From Escherichia coli O127:H6 str. E2348/69 (GTDB taxonomy: Bacteria > Pseudomonadota > Gammaproteobacteria > Enterobacterales > Enterobacteriaceae), in the NCBI RefSeq assembly GCF_000026545.1, contig NC_011601.1: DNA of 64,000 nucleotides, one strand, 5' to 3'. Position numbers: made by a program. Of the stretch, positions 52,901-58,900 are shown piece by piece (the first letter of the stretch is position 1; each line of letters opens with the position of its first letter).

Positions 52901-55900
52901 CGCGCAAACTGGCAAAACGTCTCGGCGTTTCACATACCGCGATTGCCAATAAGTTGCGGGAATATGGTCTGAGTCAGAAGAAGAACGAAGAGTAAGCGTG
53001 AATATGCCTGATGGTGCAACACCATCAGGCATATTAACTTATGCTTTCAGTACAGCCAGAGCTGCTTCGTAATCCGGCTCGGTGGTGATTTCATCCACCA
53101 GCTGGCTGAAAATCACATTGTCATTTTCATCAATAACCACAACGGCACGCGCTGCCAGACCTTTCAGTGGGCCATCAGCAATTGCCACACCGTAGGCTTG
53201 CAGGAATTCAGCGTTACGGAAAGTGGAGAGGGTGATAACGTTGTTCAGACCTTCTGCGCCGCAGAAACGAGACTGGGCGAACGGCAGATCGGCAGAGATA
53301 CACAGCACAACGGTGTTGTCGATCTCGGTTGCCAGTTGGTTAAACTTACGCACTGATGCGGCGCAAACACCGGTATCAATACTCGGGAAAATGTTCAGCA
53401 CTTTGCGTTTACCCGCAAACTGACCGAGGGTGACGTCAGACAGATCTTTTGCCACGAGAGTAAAAGTCTGCGCTTTGCTACCCGCCTGCGGGATGGAATT
53501 GGCGACTGTAACCGGGTTGCCCTGGAAATGAACGGTTTGTGACATGATTATCTTTCCTGTTTACATATAGTTAACGTCACACCTAGTTTATGCTAACTGT
53601 CAATAACACAGCAAACGCTATTTGCGCTTAATCCGCAGACCACCGCGACAACAAGGAGTAAAGATGAGAACCGTTAAGGTATTTGAGGAGGCCTGGCCCT
53701 TACATACCCCGTTTGTGATTGCTCGGGGAAGTCGCAGTGAAGCGCGCGTGGTGGTGGTTGAACTGGAAGAAGAGGGTATTAAAGGCACCGGCGAATGCAC
53801 GCCGTATCCGCGTTATGGGGAAAGTGATGCCTCGGTAATGGCGCAAATTATGAGCGTCGTGCCGCAATTAGAGAAAGGGTTGACACGGGAGGAGTTGCAA
53901 AAAATCCTCCCTGCCGGCGCAGCACGTAATGCGCTGGATTGTGCATTGTGGGATCTGGCGGCGCGAAAACAGCAGCAATCGCTGGCTGATTTGATCGGCA
54001 TAACGCTTCCCGAGACAGTCACCACGGCACAGACGATAGTCATCGGTACGCCTGATCAGATGGCCAATAGTGCATCAACACTCTGGCAGGCAGGCGCGAA
54101 ATTACTGAAAGTGAAGCTGGATAACCATCTTATCAGTGAGCGGATGGTGGCAATTCGCACAGCTGTGCCCGATGCGACGCTGATCGTTGATGCAAATGAA
54201 TCCTGGCGTGCAGAAGGGTTGGCGGCGCGTTGCCAGCTATTGGCAGATTTAGGCGTTGCGATGCTTGAACAACCGCTTTCTGCGCAGGACGATGCGGCGC
54301 TGGAGAATTTTATTCATCCGTTACCGATTTGTGCTGATGAAAGTTGTCATACTCGTAGCAATCTGAAGGCGCTGAAAGGGCGCTATGAGATGGTTAACAT
54401 TAAGCTTGATAAAACCGGTGGTCTGACGGAAGCGCTGGCGCTGGCGACTGAAGCGCGTGCACAAGGTTTTCGTCTGATGCTGGGCTGCATGTTGTGTACC
54501 TCTCGTGCCATTAGCGCCGCTTTACCGCTGGTGCCGCAGGTCAGTTTCGCCGATCTTGACGGACCGACCTGGCTGGCGGTAGATGTGGAACCGGCGCTTC
54601 AGTTCACGACGGGCGAATTGCATCTTTAGGATGCCAGCGCAGCAAGTTTGCCATCGCAAAGAGATATTTTTCGCTGGCTTCGTCGGAGGAGATGGGTGGA
54701 AACTCTGCGGTGATGCAATGCAAGTTGAGATCTGCACACCAACTGCCGAAAGAGCCAGGCGTTTCATAACCGACGCTGGTTACCAGGGGCAATTCAAACG
54801 CCTGGGCCAGCCATTCACCTAATTCGCTGTGTCTGGGATCTTCAATACAGGCCAGCGGATCGTGGAATGAGACCACCCAGGCAGGTTGAATGCGGTGTAT
54901 AAGTTGGCACAGCGCCTGGGTTTCAGGTTCGGAGCCAGGTTTGTCACCTGTCAGTAATACAACATCACGTTCTTCAGCGGCGCTGTTCCAGCGATAAACT
55001 GTTTCACCTTCCTTCCAGTTTGCTGCCGGAAAGTTTCGGTTTAAATCCACACCATTAGCATTGGCCCGTAACCCTAACTGGCAGCCGTCAGGATTCACAC
55101 ACAGCACCACATGATGGCGGCGCAAAGAAGGTGTCAAAGTCCGCAGAGCACAGGAGAGCGTGACGATCGAAGAGTTTTCATCACCGTGAGTGCCAGCCAG
55201 AATCAAACCACTTTCGTGACTGGCTGCAGGGGCCGGAAACCAGATTAACGGCGCGCCCAATAATGAACGTCCGTAATGTTCTGTTCCGGGCGGAAATGCG
55301 CCGCGTTCGGCGCGTGGGCGAGTTACGGTCATGATCGTCTCTGGTTCAGGAAGTATTACAGGCAGTGTTGTGCAAATTTTGCGGATTATCAAATCCTTTT
55401 CTTCAACGCTATGTCATCGATCTTGTATCACTTTTTTGCCGGAAGTTGTTTGTATTTTCATTGATGTGCAGATATTAGAATTGTCGTAATGTTATATACA
55501 TGGCGTATTTTATTCTTACTGGTTCTACACATGTTAATCGCATCTGATTGATCAGTTCACCTTAATAAGTTTAATAAATCGTACTGCACATAGTACAGTA
55601 CGATGGTAGCTATATAATTGATTTACATGAAGAAGGGCTTATCACTATCAGTCCCGGGTTGATTGATGCCTATATTCTCACCAATGTGTTTCTCAGGTTT
55701 ATCGATGATATCTGTGATTAATGCTGCGACACTCTTACGTGATACGATCGTACCTTTGAATGGTTCATTGCGTGAGGTAAGCTCATAATCAATAATATCT
55801 TCATCAGTCAGCCAGGCAGGGCGAAGAATTGTATATTCCAGTCCAGAAGCCTCAATTGCATCCGCAGCCCTGCGGAATGGTTTTAGGGGTTCACCAATAA

Positions 55901-58900
55901 CTGCATTATTCCATTCGCCAAATTTTCCTGGAACTTCATCATAAATACCGAGTGAAAGAACAAAGATCAGACGTTTAATATCACAGGCTTTCATCGCAGC
56001 GATCACTGAATTTGCCTGAATATCTAAATCTTCCCCCGTAAGGTTGGCATACACAACATCCTGTCCCTGCATGGCCTGCTTAAGTGCTGCATGATTCAGT
56101 ACATCCCCCATAATAATCTTGCTATTAGTTGGATAGGGTTTGTGGATTTTTGCTGGCTGACGGGCAAATAAAGTTTGTTTAATGGTTTGTTTATCTGCCA
56201 GTTGATTAATCACATGGCGGGCTATCTGACCGCCAGCACCAAGAATCAGTACATTTTTCATGAAACTTTTCCCAGATTATTGGCAGCAATATGCCTGGCC
56301 ATATCACTATTACGGATTTGAATATGTTTCATTACAGAGTTTCCTCAAAGAACGGAGCTAATACTGAAATTGCTTCAGCCACATAGACTTTGCCGTCATA
56401 AAGATCCATATGGTTTGCGCCTTCAACAATGTGATAGCGTTTATCCTGGCTTGATGCTCGATCGTACAGGTCGTCACTCATCCATTTGCTCCCAGCCTGG
56501 CTGCCCGCCACAATCTGTATCGGCTGAGTCAGGTACACTTCCGCCATATGGTAAGCATCATAGGTAATAATCTGGTTAAGGCTGCGCAAAGTAGCGTAAC
56601 CCGGTGCTGTTGGATACTGCGCGCGAGGGGTGTGGTAATACTCCCAGGCCTGACGCAGTTCTTCGTTCGGCGCATCGGACTCCTTCATTGGTGCCAGTGG
56701 CATAGTGGCGTATTCTCCGCTGCTAATATCGCTGGTTCGGGCGTTTGAACCCGCGTCAACGTATGGTAGGGCATCAATAGATTTCACATTGTTTTCCCAA
56801 CCATTACGGAACATCGAACCAATATTGACCGCACTAACAGTACCGATGGCCTTGATGCGGCGATCCTGAATTGCAGCATTGGCTGTATATCCTGCACCGG
56901 CACAAATTCCCATCGCACCAATTCGGGTATTGTCGACATAAGAAAGCGTTGTCAGGTAATCAATCACGGCACTGACGTCTTCAGTACGAATGTATGGGTT
57001 TTCTAACTGACGCGGCTCGCCGCCGCTTTCACCTTGATAAGATGCGTCATAAGCAATAGTGACAAATCCCTTTTCCGCCAGTTTTTCGGCATAGGTTCCG
57101 GCCGTTTGCTCTTTAACGCCCCCACCTGGGTGAGATACCACAATTGCCGGATACTGACGGGTTTCATCAAATTTTGGAGGGAAATAGATCACTGCAGACA
57201 AAGAGATGGTTGGATTATTGCTGTTAGTGAAGCTGACTTTATTATTCATCATTCCGTTCCTCATGGAGTTGTCGGTTCGTTTTAACGGTTGGTGATATCA
57301 CTATAGATATTGATCATTAAGTTGATTAGACCCAAAATCATGATTAGACCTATCATTTAAATGATTAATAGATTGTATGGAGATACTGAATGAAGCGTGA
57401 AGAAATCGCTGATCTGATGGCGTTTGTCGTTGTTGCAGAGGAGCGTAGCTTCACTCGCGCAGCAGCCCGCCTGAGCATGGCGCAGTCAGCTTTAAGCCAG
57501 ATAGTGCGCCGTATAGAAGAACGATTGGGATTGCGGCTTCTGACGCGAACCACGCGCAGCGTTGTACCCACTGAAGCGGGCGAGCATCTTTTGTCTGTTC
57601 TTGGCCCTATGTTGCATGACATAGATTCTGCCCTGACATCCCTGAGCGATCTGCAGAACCGCCCATCCGGGACAATACGTATTACTACTGTAGAACATGC
57701 AGCAAAAACGATATTGTTACCAGCTATGCGCACATTCCTGAAATCGCATCCTGAAATTGATATTCAGCTTACCATTGATTATGGTTTGACCGATGTCGTT
57801 TCTGAACGTTTTGATGCAGGCGTCCGTCTGGGTGGGGAGATGGATAAAGATATGATCGCCATTCGAATCGGGCCAGACATACCAATGGCTATTGTTGGCT
57901 CACCGGATTATTTTTCTCGCCGAAGTGCTCCAACGTCAGTGTCACAATTAATAGATCATCAGGCAATTAATTTGTATCTTCCCACATCGGGTACAGCAAA
58001 TCGCTGGAGATTAATACGCGGTGGACGTGAAGTTCGTGTTCGCATGGAAGGTCAGCTTTTACTGAATACGATAGACCTGATCATTGATGCTGCAATTGAT
58101 GGGCATGGATTGGCGTATCTACCTTATGATCAGGTTGAGCGGGCTATTAAAGAAAAAAAACTGATACGTGTTTTGGATAAATTCACACCAGATTTACCCG
58201 GTTATCACCTGTACTATCCACACCGTCGACATGCTGGCTCGGCATTCTCATTATTTATAGATAGGCTGAAGTATAAAGGTGCTGTTTAGCACTACTTGCT
58301 GATACATTAATTTAATTCTTCTCTTAACGTATTCTCAGTTCCTTTCAACGTTTTGGTTATTTTTTATTCTTCGCACAATGGCGACAGATGCTGATTATGA
58401 TACCGAAAACGGGTTTGAATGTGCGAAGCCCGAACGTAGTGTTCGGAGTTCTATGTGCTTTACCGCATTTTGGAGACTATTATTTACACTAAATCTGATT
58501 TGATATATTGATACTTAAAACATTTGATGCTTCCTTTGTCACTTTTTTGATGGAAGTTGTTTGCATTTCTTTAAAGCGAAACAAATAATTACGCATCAAT
58601 TTTAATGTCGGTTAGAGGGAAACTTATGAAGCACTCTGTTTCAGTCACGTGTTGTGCGCTGTTGGTCAGCAGCATTTCTCTTTCGTATGCTGCTGAAGTT
58701 CCGAGCGGCACAGTACTGGCAGAGAAGCAGGAGCTGGTGCGCCACATTAAAGATGAGCCAGCGTCGCTGGATCCCGCTAAAGCCGTGGGCCTGCCGGAGA
58801 TTCAGGTCATTCGCGATCTGTTTGAAGGACTGGTGAATCAGAACGAGAAAGGGGAGATTGTCCCCGGCGTTGCGACTCAGTGGAAAAGTAATGACAACCG

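What the first reader, a model, noticed from the sequence alone, without database searches (positions are those of the whole stretch)
55623..56261. Full-length NmrA-like gene where K-12 has the ymjC fragment
A 212-aa NAD(P)-binding protein with an intact Rossmann motif occupies the ycjY–mpaA interval and is followed by its own hairpin at 55579..55601. This suggests the ancestral ycjY–ymjC–mpaA arrangement is preserved here and degraded in K-12.
Basis: partly seen in the sequence, partly recalled or inferred. Interest (0 to 1): 0.25.

Follow-up and report, generated by a model that had tools for sequence, protein, structure and literature searches.

The report
Intact ymjC reductase gene, decaying cassette
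The window (E. coli E2348/69) carries an intact 212-aa NAD(P)H-binding reductase gene that K-12 keeps only as the 60-aa ymjC stump, but this is already annotated and the window's arrangement is itself a partly deleted version of an acquired gene cassette, not the ancestral state.

Summary
Window 55623..56261 (-) encodes a 212-aa atypical SDR: PF13460 matched end to end (E 5.8e-54) and about 97% identity to PDB 3QVO. A 12-bp-stem hairpin lies at 55578..55604. K-12 has a 660-bp deletion (window 55463..56122) that leaves the 60-aa YmjC.

The window is 100% identical to E. coli E2348/69 and has itself lost a gene. A second alpha/beta hydrolase (full-length ymjD, a ycjY paralogue) lies between ycjY and the SDR in EDL933-type strains and in other genera. 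Here it is reduced to a 24-codon remnant (56258..56332), and K-12 shares the same junction.

The whole pgrR-ycjY-ymjD-ymjC block is an insertion into the mppA-mpaA intergenic region. It is flanked by a 37-nt direct repeat. It is absent from that site in Citrobacter, Enterobacter and Pseudocitrobacter, and from 174 of 5426 complete E. coli genomes.

Approximate counts among those 5426 genomes:
- Empty site: 174.
- Full cassette: 1272.
- Window type: 1646.
- K-12 type: 2294.

In other enterics the cassette has six genes (plus a classical SDR and an Old Yellow Enzyme) and sits in genomic islands. The hairpin is a conserved intercistronic element of that cassette.

This is ordinary, already annotated gene decay, so interest is low.

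The parts
55623..56261 (-). Full-length atypical SDR / NAD(P)H-binding protein, 212 aa. It is the orthologue of the K-12 ymjC fragment; RefSeq WP_000800174.1 'SDR family oxidoreductase'.
   Evidence: ORF. PF13460 E 5.8e-54 over the full profile. PDB 3QVO E 2.5e-137. RefSeq annotation in E2348/69. dN/dS 0.115 against the EDL933 allele.
55578..55604 (-). Conserved stem-loop (12-bp stem, 3-nt loop) starting 19 nt after the SDR stop codon. It is intercistronic in the six-gene form of the cassette. Here it could act as a weak terminator or an mRNA-end structure.
   Evidence: Fold -16.2 kcal/mol, z -3.35. Not called by the terminator scan because the U-tract is weak. Conserved in C. koseri, K. aerogenes/Salmonella and Pseudocitrobacter cassettes, with 3 pairs changed on both sides.
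55546..55577 (-). Remnant of the SDR-to-adh_short intercistronic region. It holds the RBS AAGGTG and the first codons of a lost classical-SDR gene, with its start codon changed from ATG to ATC.
   Evidence: blastn 88% identity to L084-L090, ending 7 nt into their adh_short gene. Alignment A2. Gene tables of L084-L090.
56258..56332 (-). ymjD remnant ORF, 24 codons (MKHIQIRNSDMARHIAANNLGKVS). Its ATG overlaps the ycjY stop (TAATG) and its TGA overlaps the SDR start (ATGA). It is what is left of a 310-aa alpha/beta hydrolase after a net loss of about 880 bp.
   Evidence: Sequence and translation. blastn block boundaries against EDL933. K-12 ymjD b4673 is annotated at the same place.
56332..57252 (-). 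ycjY, an alpha/beta (serine) hydrolase and the first gene of the operon.
   Evidence: RefSeq annotation. Pfam Peptidase_S15/DLH/Hydrolase_4. PDB 5XB6 is deposited as YcjY and matches the ymjD-type paralogue.
57390..58289 (+). pgrR (ycjZ), a LysR-type regulator divergent from ycjY. It travels with the cassette in other genera.
   Evidence: Pfam HTH_1 + LysR_substrate. A LysR gene is divergent from the hydrolases in 15 or more loci. The promoter-like site TAGACC-18-TATCAT at 57327..57356 matches the pgrR promoter hexamers listed in PMC3946193.
55421..55457 (.). Left (mpaA-side) copy of the 37-nt direct repeat bounding the inserted block. It derives from the native mppA-mpaA intergenic region.
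   Evidence: the repeat finder family D1, 84% identity, spacing 3111. Homology to the single-copy sequence in Citrobacter and in empty-site E. coli.
58532..58568 (.). Right (mppA-side) copy of the 37-nt direct repeat.
55463..56122 (.). The stretch deleted in K-12-type strains: SDR codons 47-212, the stop codon, the hairpin and all cassette DNA up to 5 bp from the left repeat.
   Evidence: blastn block boundaries of window against K-12. Junction sequences. The junction is present in 2294 of 5426 genomes.
54604..55332 (-). mpaA, murein tripeptide amidase. It is a native flank downstream of the cassette on the same strand.
   Evidence: RefSeq annotation. Pfam Peptidase_M14.

Best explanation
Window 55623..56261 (-) is the intact orthologue of K-12 ymjC. 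It encodes an NAD(P)H-dependent atypical short-chain reductase (PF13460, biliverdin-reductase-B-like fold).

Gene layout (shown). It is the last gene of a cassette made of a LysR regulator (pgrR) divergent from ycjY (hydrolase), ymjD (paralogous hydrolase) and ymjC (reductase). Fuller versions in other enterics add a classical SDR and an Old Yellow Enzyme.

Insertion (shown that the block is inserted; the mechanism and time are not known). In the E. coli lineage the cassette was inserted into the divergent mppA-mpaA intergenic region, and 37 nt of the target were duplicated.

Stepwise decay (the order is inferred from nested junctions):
1. The adh_short and OYE genes were lost, leaving only the intercistronic hairpin, the RBS and a dead start codon.
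2. ymjD was deleted, giving the window / E2348/69 state (about 30% of complete genomes).
3. In a genome that already carried the ymjD deletion, a 660-bp deletion ran from ymjC codon 47 to the edge of the insert, giving the K-12 state (about 42%).

Expression (inferred). In the window the reductase is most likely still made. It would be transcribed from the PgrR-controlled ycjY promoter and translationally coupled to the 24-codon ymjD remnant through the ATGA overlap. Its mRNA would end or be stabilised at the conserved hairpin. Purifying selection (dN/dS about 0.1) fits a working gene.

Biochemical role (inferred from gene neighbourhood only). The reductase would reduce a carbonyl, enone or quinone-type small molecule that the partner serine hydrolases release or open. 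That would make the cassette a xenobiotic or electrophile-processing module rather than a dedicated peptidoglycan-recycling one.

The confidence given (0.8) applies to the identity of the gene and the structural history of the locus. The expression and biochemical-role steps are much less certain (about 0.4).
For: Identity of the gene.

K-12 truncation and breakpoints.

Full ymjD in EDL933-type strains, and the shared ymjD-deletion junction in the window and K-12.

Cassette conserved as a unit. In Pseudocitrobacter PgrR is 87%, YcjY 93% and the SDR 82% identical to the window. The cassette also occurs in Afipia, Mesorhizobium, Hyphomicrobium, Stenotrophomonas, Paraburkholderia, Caballeronia and Achromobacter, and the YmjD-SDR pair occurs in Rhizobiales, Paracoccus and Bacteroidota.

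Six-gene form in C. koseri and K. aerogenes/Salmonella islands. OYE also follows the SDR in loci L007, L008, L010, L011, L012 and L015.

Insertion: mppA and mpaA are adjacent in Citrobacter, P. faecalis and E. mori and in 174 E. coli genomes. The flanking 37-nt repeat is a duplicated part of the native intergenic region. The SDR is 42% GC and the inserted block 44%, against 54% for mpaA and ycjG.

Counts of states.

Hairpin conservation and the dead adh_short start codon.

Purifying selection: dN/dS is 0.115 for the SDR, 0.110 for ycjY and 0.096 for pgrR.

Operon status in K-12: ycjY-ymjDC(-mpaA) is listed in PMC3946193 and PMC5934670.

Redox/electrophile context elsewhere: HxlR-type regulators and a nitroreductase-like gene lie next to the roughly 48%-identical homologues in lactobacilli. 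The nearest characterised PDB relatives are ChuY and biliverdin-IX-beta/flavin reductase.
Against: No expression or enzymatic data for this allele were available. The substrate is unknown, and the neighbourhood inference is generic.

The conserved partner ymjD is missing here, so the reductase may be stranded without its pathway. The gene is inactivated again and again in E. coli: the K-12 deletion, an IS5 insertion in L097, and truncated protein clusters P0041 and P0043.

The dN/dS estimate rests on only 5 amino-acid differences.

The empty site in 174 E. coli genomes could be a secondary excision between the repeats rather than the retained pre-insertion state. No Escherichia outgroup (E. 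albertii, E. fergusonii) could be examined.

Cassette divergence between E. coli and C. koseri (dS about 2) is as large as for the core gene mpaA. The insertion is therefore old, and its timing relative to speciation is unresolved.
Confidence: 0.8

Rival explanations
1. The window keeps the ancestral ycjY-ymjC-mpaA arrangement unchanged, and only K-12 is degraded.
For: ymjC is intact here and truncated in K-12.
Against: The window carries the same ymjD deletion as K-12. The full 310-aa ymjD is present in 1272 E. coli genomes and in every fuller cassette in other genera. The deeper ancestral state has mppA next to mpaA with no cassette.
Confidence: 0.05
2. The window's reductase gene is intact in sequence but is a functionally stranded orphan on its way to loss. 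Its pathway partners (ymjD, adh_short, OYE) are gone, so it contributes nothing, and the K-12 deletion is the neutral next step.
For: YmjD-SDR is the most widely conserved pair of the cassette, and YmjD is missing here. Independent inactivations occur in E. coli: the 660-bp deletion in 42% of genomes, IS5, and truncated variants. ymjD is frameshifted in EDL933.
Against: dN/dS of 0.115 between the window and EDL933 alleles is as low as for ycjY and pgrR. The start codon, the coupling overlap and the hairpin are intact. About 1646 genomes retain this exact state.
Confidence: 0.3
3. The reductase and the ycjY operon are genuine parts of peptidoglycan (murein tripeptide) recycling, co-evolved with mpaA, mppA and ycjG under PgrR.
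For: In K-12 PgrR is described as the regulator of peptidoglycan recycling, with ycjY-ymjDC-mpaA and ycjG in its regulon (PMC5934670; it cites Shimada 2013, which is not held). The genes are adjacent to mpaA and mppA in E. coli.
Against: In none of the 87 non-E. coli cassette or homologue loci is an mpaA, mppA or ycjG homologue within about 6-8 kb. Outgroups keep mppA-mpaA-ycjG together without the cassette. Elsewhere the cassette's companions are oxidoreductases: OYE, adh_short and aldo-keto reductases.
Confidence: 0.15
4. The hairpin at 55578..55604 is the gene's own Rho-independent terminator and insulates mpaA from the ycjY operon. If so, its loss in K-12 created the ycjY-ymjDC-mpaA read-through operon.
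For: The stem is stable and lies 19 nt after the stop codon. The K-12 deletion removes it. K-12 literature lists mpaA in the ycjY operon.
Against: The tail is UUAUUAAA, which gives 4 U in 8, and the terminator scan did not call it. In the six-gene cassettes the same hairpin sits inside the operon, 20-25 nt before the next gene's RBS, so it cannot terminate fully there.
Confidence: 0.3

Closest known systems
E. coli K-12 ymjC (b4525) and ymjD (b4673)
   Same: Same locus and the same ymjD-deletion junction. The first 46 residues of YmjC are identical to the window protein. K-12 ymjD (21 codons) corresponds to the window's 24-codon remnant ORF.
   Different: K-12 lacks codons 47-212, the stop codon, the hairpin and the remaining cassette DNA (660 bp). 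The window gene is complete.
PDB 3QVO 'NmrA family protein'
   Same: Aligns over all 212 residues at E 2.5e-137 with only a few substitutions, so it is the solved structure of this orthologue.
   Different: No published function was found; searching the paper library for the PDB code returned nothing relevant. I recall the source organism as Shigella flexneri, but I did not verify this with the tools.
PF13460 NAD(P)H-binding atypical SDRs: biliverdin-IX-beta/flavin reductase (1HDO), ChuY/ShuY anaerobilin reductase (5GUY, 5FFQ), Veillonella 3R6D/4IPT
   Same: Same domain family and length class (about 205-220 aa), with the N-terminal glycine-rich dinucleotide-binding motif.
   Different: Only distant sequence similarity: E 1e-19 to the uncharacterised Veillonella protein and 3e-6 to 3e-5 to ChuY and BVR-B. 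The substrate cannot be transferred. This subfamily has its own invariant RLIFVLSLGIYDEVPGKFGEWNN block.
Six-gene LysR / YcjY / YmjD / SDR / adh_short / OYE cassette of Citrobacter koseri, Klebsiella aerogenes and Salmonella islands
   Same: Same gene order and orientation, the same overlapping starts, and the same intercistronic hairpin. Identities are 81-83% for the SDR, 93% for YcjY and 88% for PgrR.
   Different: The window lacks ymjD, adh_short and OYE. It sits between mpaA and mppA instead of in an island with AlpA, replicase or defence-system neighbours.

Membership tests
PF13460 NAD_binding_10 (atypical SDR, NAD(P)H-binding) | Full-length match to the family profile above the curated threshold | tested here: met
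   183.2 bits against a cut-off of 27.2; residues 8-189 match profile positions 1-184 of 184.
PF13460 NAD_binding_10 (atypical SDR, NAD(P)H-binding) | N-terminal glycine-rich dinucleotide-binding (Rossmann) motif | tested here: met
   G8-A-G-G-Q-I-A14 is present. The corresponding GA(G/S)GQIA is conserved in homologues down to 67% identity.
PF13460 NAD_binding_10 (atypical SDR, NAD(P)H-binding) | Binds NAD(P)H and reduces a substrate | not testable with these tools
   No biochemical data. A structure of the orthologue exists (3QVO), but its ligand state was not examined.
PF05368 NmrA-like family | Match over the NmrA profile (298 positions) | tested here: inconclusive
   41.2 bits exceeds the cut-off of 27, but only residues 2-100 match, against profile positions 3-104 of 298. 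The match is the shared Rossmann half only. The depositors of 3QVO used the NmrA label.
Orthologue of K-12 ymjC | Same chromosomal position and collinear sequence with K-12 ymjC | tested here: met
   The flanks align at 98% identity on both sides of a single 660-bp gap. The first 46 residues are identical. K-12 annotation.
Rho-independent (intrinsic) terminator | G+C-rich stem-loop immediately followed by a U-rich tract | tested here: not met
   The stem-loop is present and stable. The tail has too few U and the scan did not report the site. The homologous hairpin is intercistronic in other cassettes.
Inserted DNA block (genomic islet) with target duplication | Empty site in relatives, direct repeats derived from the target at both ends, deviant composition | tested here: met
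   Empty sites. The 37-nt repeat, which is single copy in empty sites. GC is 0.44 against about 0.54 for the mpaA/ycjG flank. No integrase or transposase is associated, so the mechanism is unknown.

The most novel reading that the evidence does not exclude
The E. coli 'peptidoglycan-recycling' regulator PgrR and its ycjY-ymjD-ymjC operon are a horizontally acquired small-molecule hydrolase/reductase cassette that landed between mppA and mpaA. Its link to murein-peptide genes would then be an accident of the insertion. In K-12-type strains that link may have been reinforced by the 660-bp deletion, which removed the hairpin and everything else between ymjC and the mpaA upstream region. On this reading, regulatory conclusions drawn from K-12 would not hold for the roughly 55% of strains with other states of the locus.
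Probability: 0.35. Interest if true: 0.35.

Novelty: already known. Interest (0 to 1): 0.15.

Why it matters
The gene itself matters little. RefSeq already calls the K-12 copy a partial gene and the full copy an SDR family oxidoreductase. A crystal structure of the orthologue exists, and pan-genome studies already treat ymjC as a variable gene.

The useful by-product is a clean reconstruction of the locus. It exists in at least four structural states across E. coli: empty, full cassette, ymjD-deleted, and ymjD- plus ymjC-deleted. This warns that K-12 operon and regulon models for pgrR, ycjY, ymjDC and mpaA describe the most degraded state of an acquired cassette.

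Tried and rejected
1. 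Species-representative genome scan with the SDR. It returned no Escherichia, Salmonella or Citrobacter representative among the best 80. The best hit was a Pseudocitrobacter MAG at 82%.

2. Search for traces of the adh_short and OYE genes in the window by tblastn. No protein-level hit was found. Only a 42-bp DNA match to the intercistronic region and the first codons appeared.

3. The two non-coding ends of the insert (55458-55545 and 58290-58540) gave no match in any other cassette locus. The origin of these 88 and roughly 250 bp is unexplained, apart from a 25-aa QueH-like fragment annotated by RefSeq.

4. I checked whether the 37-nt repeat is a sigma-54 promoter (TGGAAG-N-TTGCA). By eye the GG-GC spacing is one base short of consensus, so I did not pursue it.

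5. Papers. The ymjC/ymjD search found only operon listings and one pan-genome association with lactic-acid resistance. The small-protein paper I recalled for ymjD could not be retrieved. Shimada 2013 on PgrR is not held; I cite it only through papers that cite it.

6. I rejected the idea that the full-length state is a gain in E2348/69. The K-12 fragment ends mid-domain and is fused to non-coding DNA.

Full report
**What the window is.** The 1.1-kb stretch around the finding is 100% identical to the E. coli E2348/69 chromosome. The surrounding 6.1 kb is identical base for base to that record. RefSeq annotates the locus there as tyrR, tpx, ycjG, mpaA, 'SDR family oxidoreductase' (WP_000800174.1), ycjY, pgrR and mppA.

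**Checking the observation.** The ORF at 55623..56261 on the minus strand is 212 aa with an ATG start.
- It matches Pfam PF13460 (NAD(P)H-binding, atypical SDR) over the whole profile at E 5.8e-54.
- The NmrA profile (PF05368) matches only the Rossmann half, residues 2-100.
- No NCBIfam equivalog comes near its cut-off.
- PDB 3QVO, deposited as 'NmrA family protein', aligns over all 212 residues at E 2.5e-137.
- The glycine-rich motif GAGGQIA is intact and conserved in the family.
- Starting 19 nt after the stop codon there is a 12-bp stem with a 3-nt loop at 55578..55604 (-16.2 kcal/mol, z -3.35).
- Its tail, UUAUUAAA, is a poor U-tract, and the terminator scan did not report it.

**K-12 comparison.** K-12 aligns to the window at 98% identity on both sides of one gap, window 55463..56122, which is 660 bp. 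The K-12 reading frame keeps SDR residues 1-46 and then runs into fused downstream DNA for 14 more codons. This is exactly the 60-aa ymjC (b4525) of MG1655. RefSeq marks the equivalent feature in another K-12 record as 'incomplete; missing C-terminus'. The deletion also removes the hairpin. The claim that K-12 holds a fragment is correct, and it is already encoded in public annotation.

**The window is itself degraded.** EDL933-type genomes carry about 880 bp more between ycjY and the SDR.
- The extra DNA is a second alpha/beta hydrolase of 310 aa, about 41% identical to YcjY. It starts at the ycjY stop (TAATG) and is frameshifted in EDL933 itself.
- The window keeps its first 19 codons and its last two sense codons, fused into a 24-codon ORF at 56258..56332. 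That ORF's stop overlaps the SDR start as ATGA.
- K-12 has the same junction, and its 21-codon version is what MG1655 annotates as ymjD (b4673).
- The same event, or one next to it, removed 12 bp (codons MRNI) from the 5' end of the SDR. That explains the 216-aa forms found in full-cassette strains.

**Polarity.** The order LysR <> YcjY, YmjD, SDR is found intact in many other organisms.
- A Pseudocitrobacter MAG has it, with PgrR 87%, YcjY 93% and the SDR 82% identical to the window.
- So do Afipia, Mesorhizobium and Hyphomicrobium, where YcjY is 82-85% and PgrR 71-73% identical. So do Stenotrophomonas, Paraburkholderia, Caballeronia and Achromobacter.
- The YmjD-SDR pair alone occurs in Rhizobiales, Paracoccus and Bacteroidota.
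- In Citrobacter koseri and Klebsiella aerogenes/Salmonella the unit has six genes. A classical adh_short SDR (277 aa) and an Old Yellow Enzyme (375 aa) follow the NmrA-like SDR. The unit lies in islands with AlpA, replicase or NikA-like genes, or next to cyclic-nucleotide defence genes, and is not near mpaA or mppA.
- OYE also follows the SDR in several Burkholderiales and Stenotrophomonas loci.

The two-hydrolase state is therefore ancestral for the cassette, and the window state is derived.

**The cassette is an insertion.** In Citrobacter, Pseudocitrobacter faecalis and Enterobacter mori, mppA and mpaA are divergent neighbours about 180 bp apart, followed by ycjG, tpx and tyrR.
- Aligning the Citrobacter intergenic region to the window splits it in two, with about 30 bp matching both ends of the block.
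- The repeat finder reports the corresponding 37-nt direct repeat at 55421-55457 and 58532-58568, at 84% identity.
- E. coli EM10-18-28 and 173 other complete genomes (for example ST648) have the empty site with one copy of that sequence.
- The SDR gene is 42% GC and the inserted block 44%, against 54% for mpaA and ycjG.
- No integrase is associated, so the mechanism is unknown. The empty E. coli sites could be ancestral or the result of recombination between the repeats.

**The hairpin.** The 42 bp downstream of the hairpin region match, at 88% identity, the SDR-to-adh_short intercistronic region of the six-gene cassettes. The match runs 7 nt into adh_short. In the alignment the window retains the RBS AAGGTG and has ATC where the others have the adh_short ATG. 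The stem is conserved, with three pairs changed on both sides between the E. coli and other-genus versions. This amounts to few independent events, so it is suggestive only. The hairpin is thus an inherited intercistronic element. It may act as a partial terminator or stabiliser, but it cannot be a full terminator in the six-gene operons.

**Frequencies among 5426 complete E. coli genomes.**

| State | Genomes | Source |
|---|---|---|
| K-12 junction | 2294 | |
| ymjD-deletion junction (K-12 type plus window type) | 3940 | |
| Window type, by subtraction | about 1646 | |
| Full ymjD | 1272 | |
| Empty site | 174 | |

The total is 5386. The remaining 40 or so include cases such as an IS5 insertion in the SDR. 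The 2894 genomes covering at least 80% of the SDR region agree with 1646 + 1272, less the disrupted cases.

**Is the window gene alive?** dN/dS between the window and EDL933 alleles is 0.115. This is similar to ycjY (0.110) and pgrR (0.096), but it rests on five replacements. Against this, the gene's most conserved partner is gone, and E. coli holds several other broken alleles: protein clusters of 171 aa and 162 aa, and frameshifted forms. I favour 'still functional and expressed from the ycjY promoter', and I give 'stranded orphan' about 0.3.

**Function.** Nothing is known directly. The nearest characterised relatives are NADPH-dependent reductases of conjugated substrates (ChuY, biliverdin-IX-beta/flavin reductase), at E 1e-5 to 1e-6. 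Across phyla the gene's companions are serine hydrolases, OYE, a classical SDR, and LysR, AraC or HxlR regulators. No mpaA, mppA or ycjG homologue is nearby in any non-E. coli locus. This points to a small-molecule (ester, lactone, enone or quinone) processing module. The K-12 literature places the operon in the PgrR 'peptidoglycan recycling' regulon. That link may be secondary to the insertion, but this is inference.

**Verdict.** The phenomenon is ordinary reductive evolution of an acquired cassette, and the central fact (full-length gene here, K-12 fragment there) is already in public annotation and in the PDB. Interest is low.

Noticed in passing
window 55421-55457 and 58532-58568: A 37-nt imperfect direct repeat (84% identity) brackets the pgrR-ycjY-ymjD'-ymjC block. 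It is single copy in Citrobacter and in 174 E. coli genomes that have mppA next to mpaA. This marks the block as an insertion with target duplication, and no recombinase gene is present.
   Followed up: yes
window 55459-55463: The K-12 660-bp deletion ends 5 bp beyond the mpaA-side repeat (first deleted base 55463; repeat ends 55457). It therefore removes the cassette DNA downstream of ymjC codon 46 almost exactly up to the native sequence. Whether this is coincidence or mechanistic is unknown.
   Followed up: partly
window about 58387-58461 (+), inside ORF 58378..58503: A 25-aa fragment (DADYDTENGFECAKPERSVRSSMCF) lies in the pgrR-mppA spacer, inside the inserted block. RefSeq annotates it in other strains as a partial epoxyqueuosine reductase QueH. 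No counterpart was found next to the cassette in other genera.
   Followed up: partly
L005, L006, L009 (Afipia, Mesorhizobium, Hyphomicrobium), positions about 2800-6633: YcjY is 82-85% and PgrR 71-73% identical between E. coli and these Alphaproteobacteria. That is far above what I would expect for vertically inherited genes between these classes (my judgement, not tested here), and it implies inter-class horizontal transfer of the four-gene cassette.
   Followed up: partly
L087-L090 (Klebsiella aerogenes / Salmonella) 10900-13300: The six-gene cassette sits next to variable anti-phage modules (Pfam AGS_C with PycTM, or SMODS with SLATT_6) and near proBA-like genes. This suggests it rides in a variable defence or integration hotspot.
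   Followed up: no
L002 3483-4413 (EDL933) and L097 6342-8045 (EC1908157): Independent inactivations occur in full-cassette strains: ymjD is frameshifted in O157:H7 EDL933, and the SDR is split by an IS5-family element in EC1908157.
   Followed up: partly
window 55828-55855 (-): A sigma-70-like hexamer pair (TTGAGG-16-TACAAT) lies inside the SDR gene, oriented toward mpaA. The region has fewer such matches than shuffled controls overall, so this is probably chance.
   Followed up: no
window 56332-57264: The longest ycjY ORF starts 12 bp upstream of the RefSeq start (310 aa against 306 aa). Likewise, the longest mpaA and mppA ORFs extend beyond their annotated starts (55392 against 55332; 58605 against 58626).
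   Followed up: no
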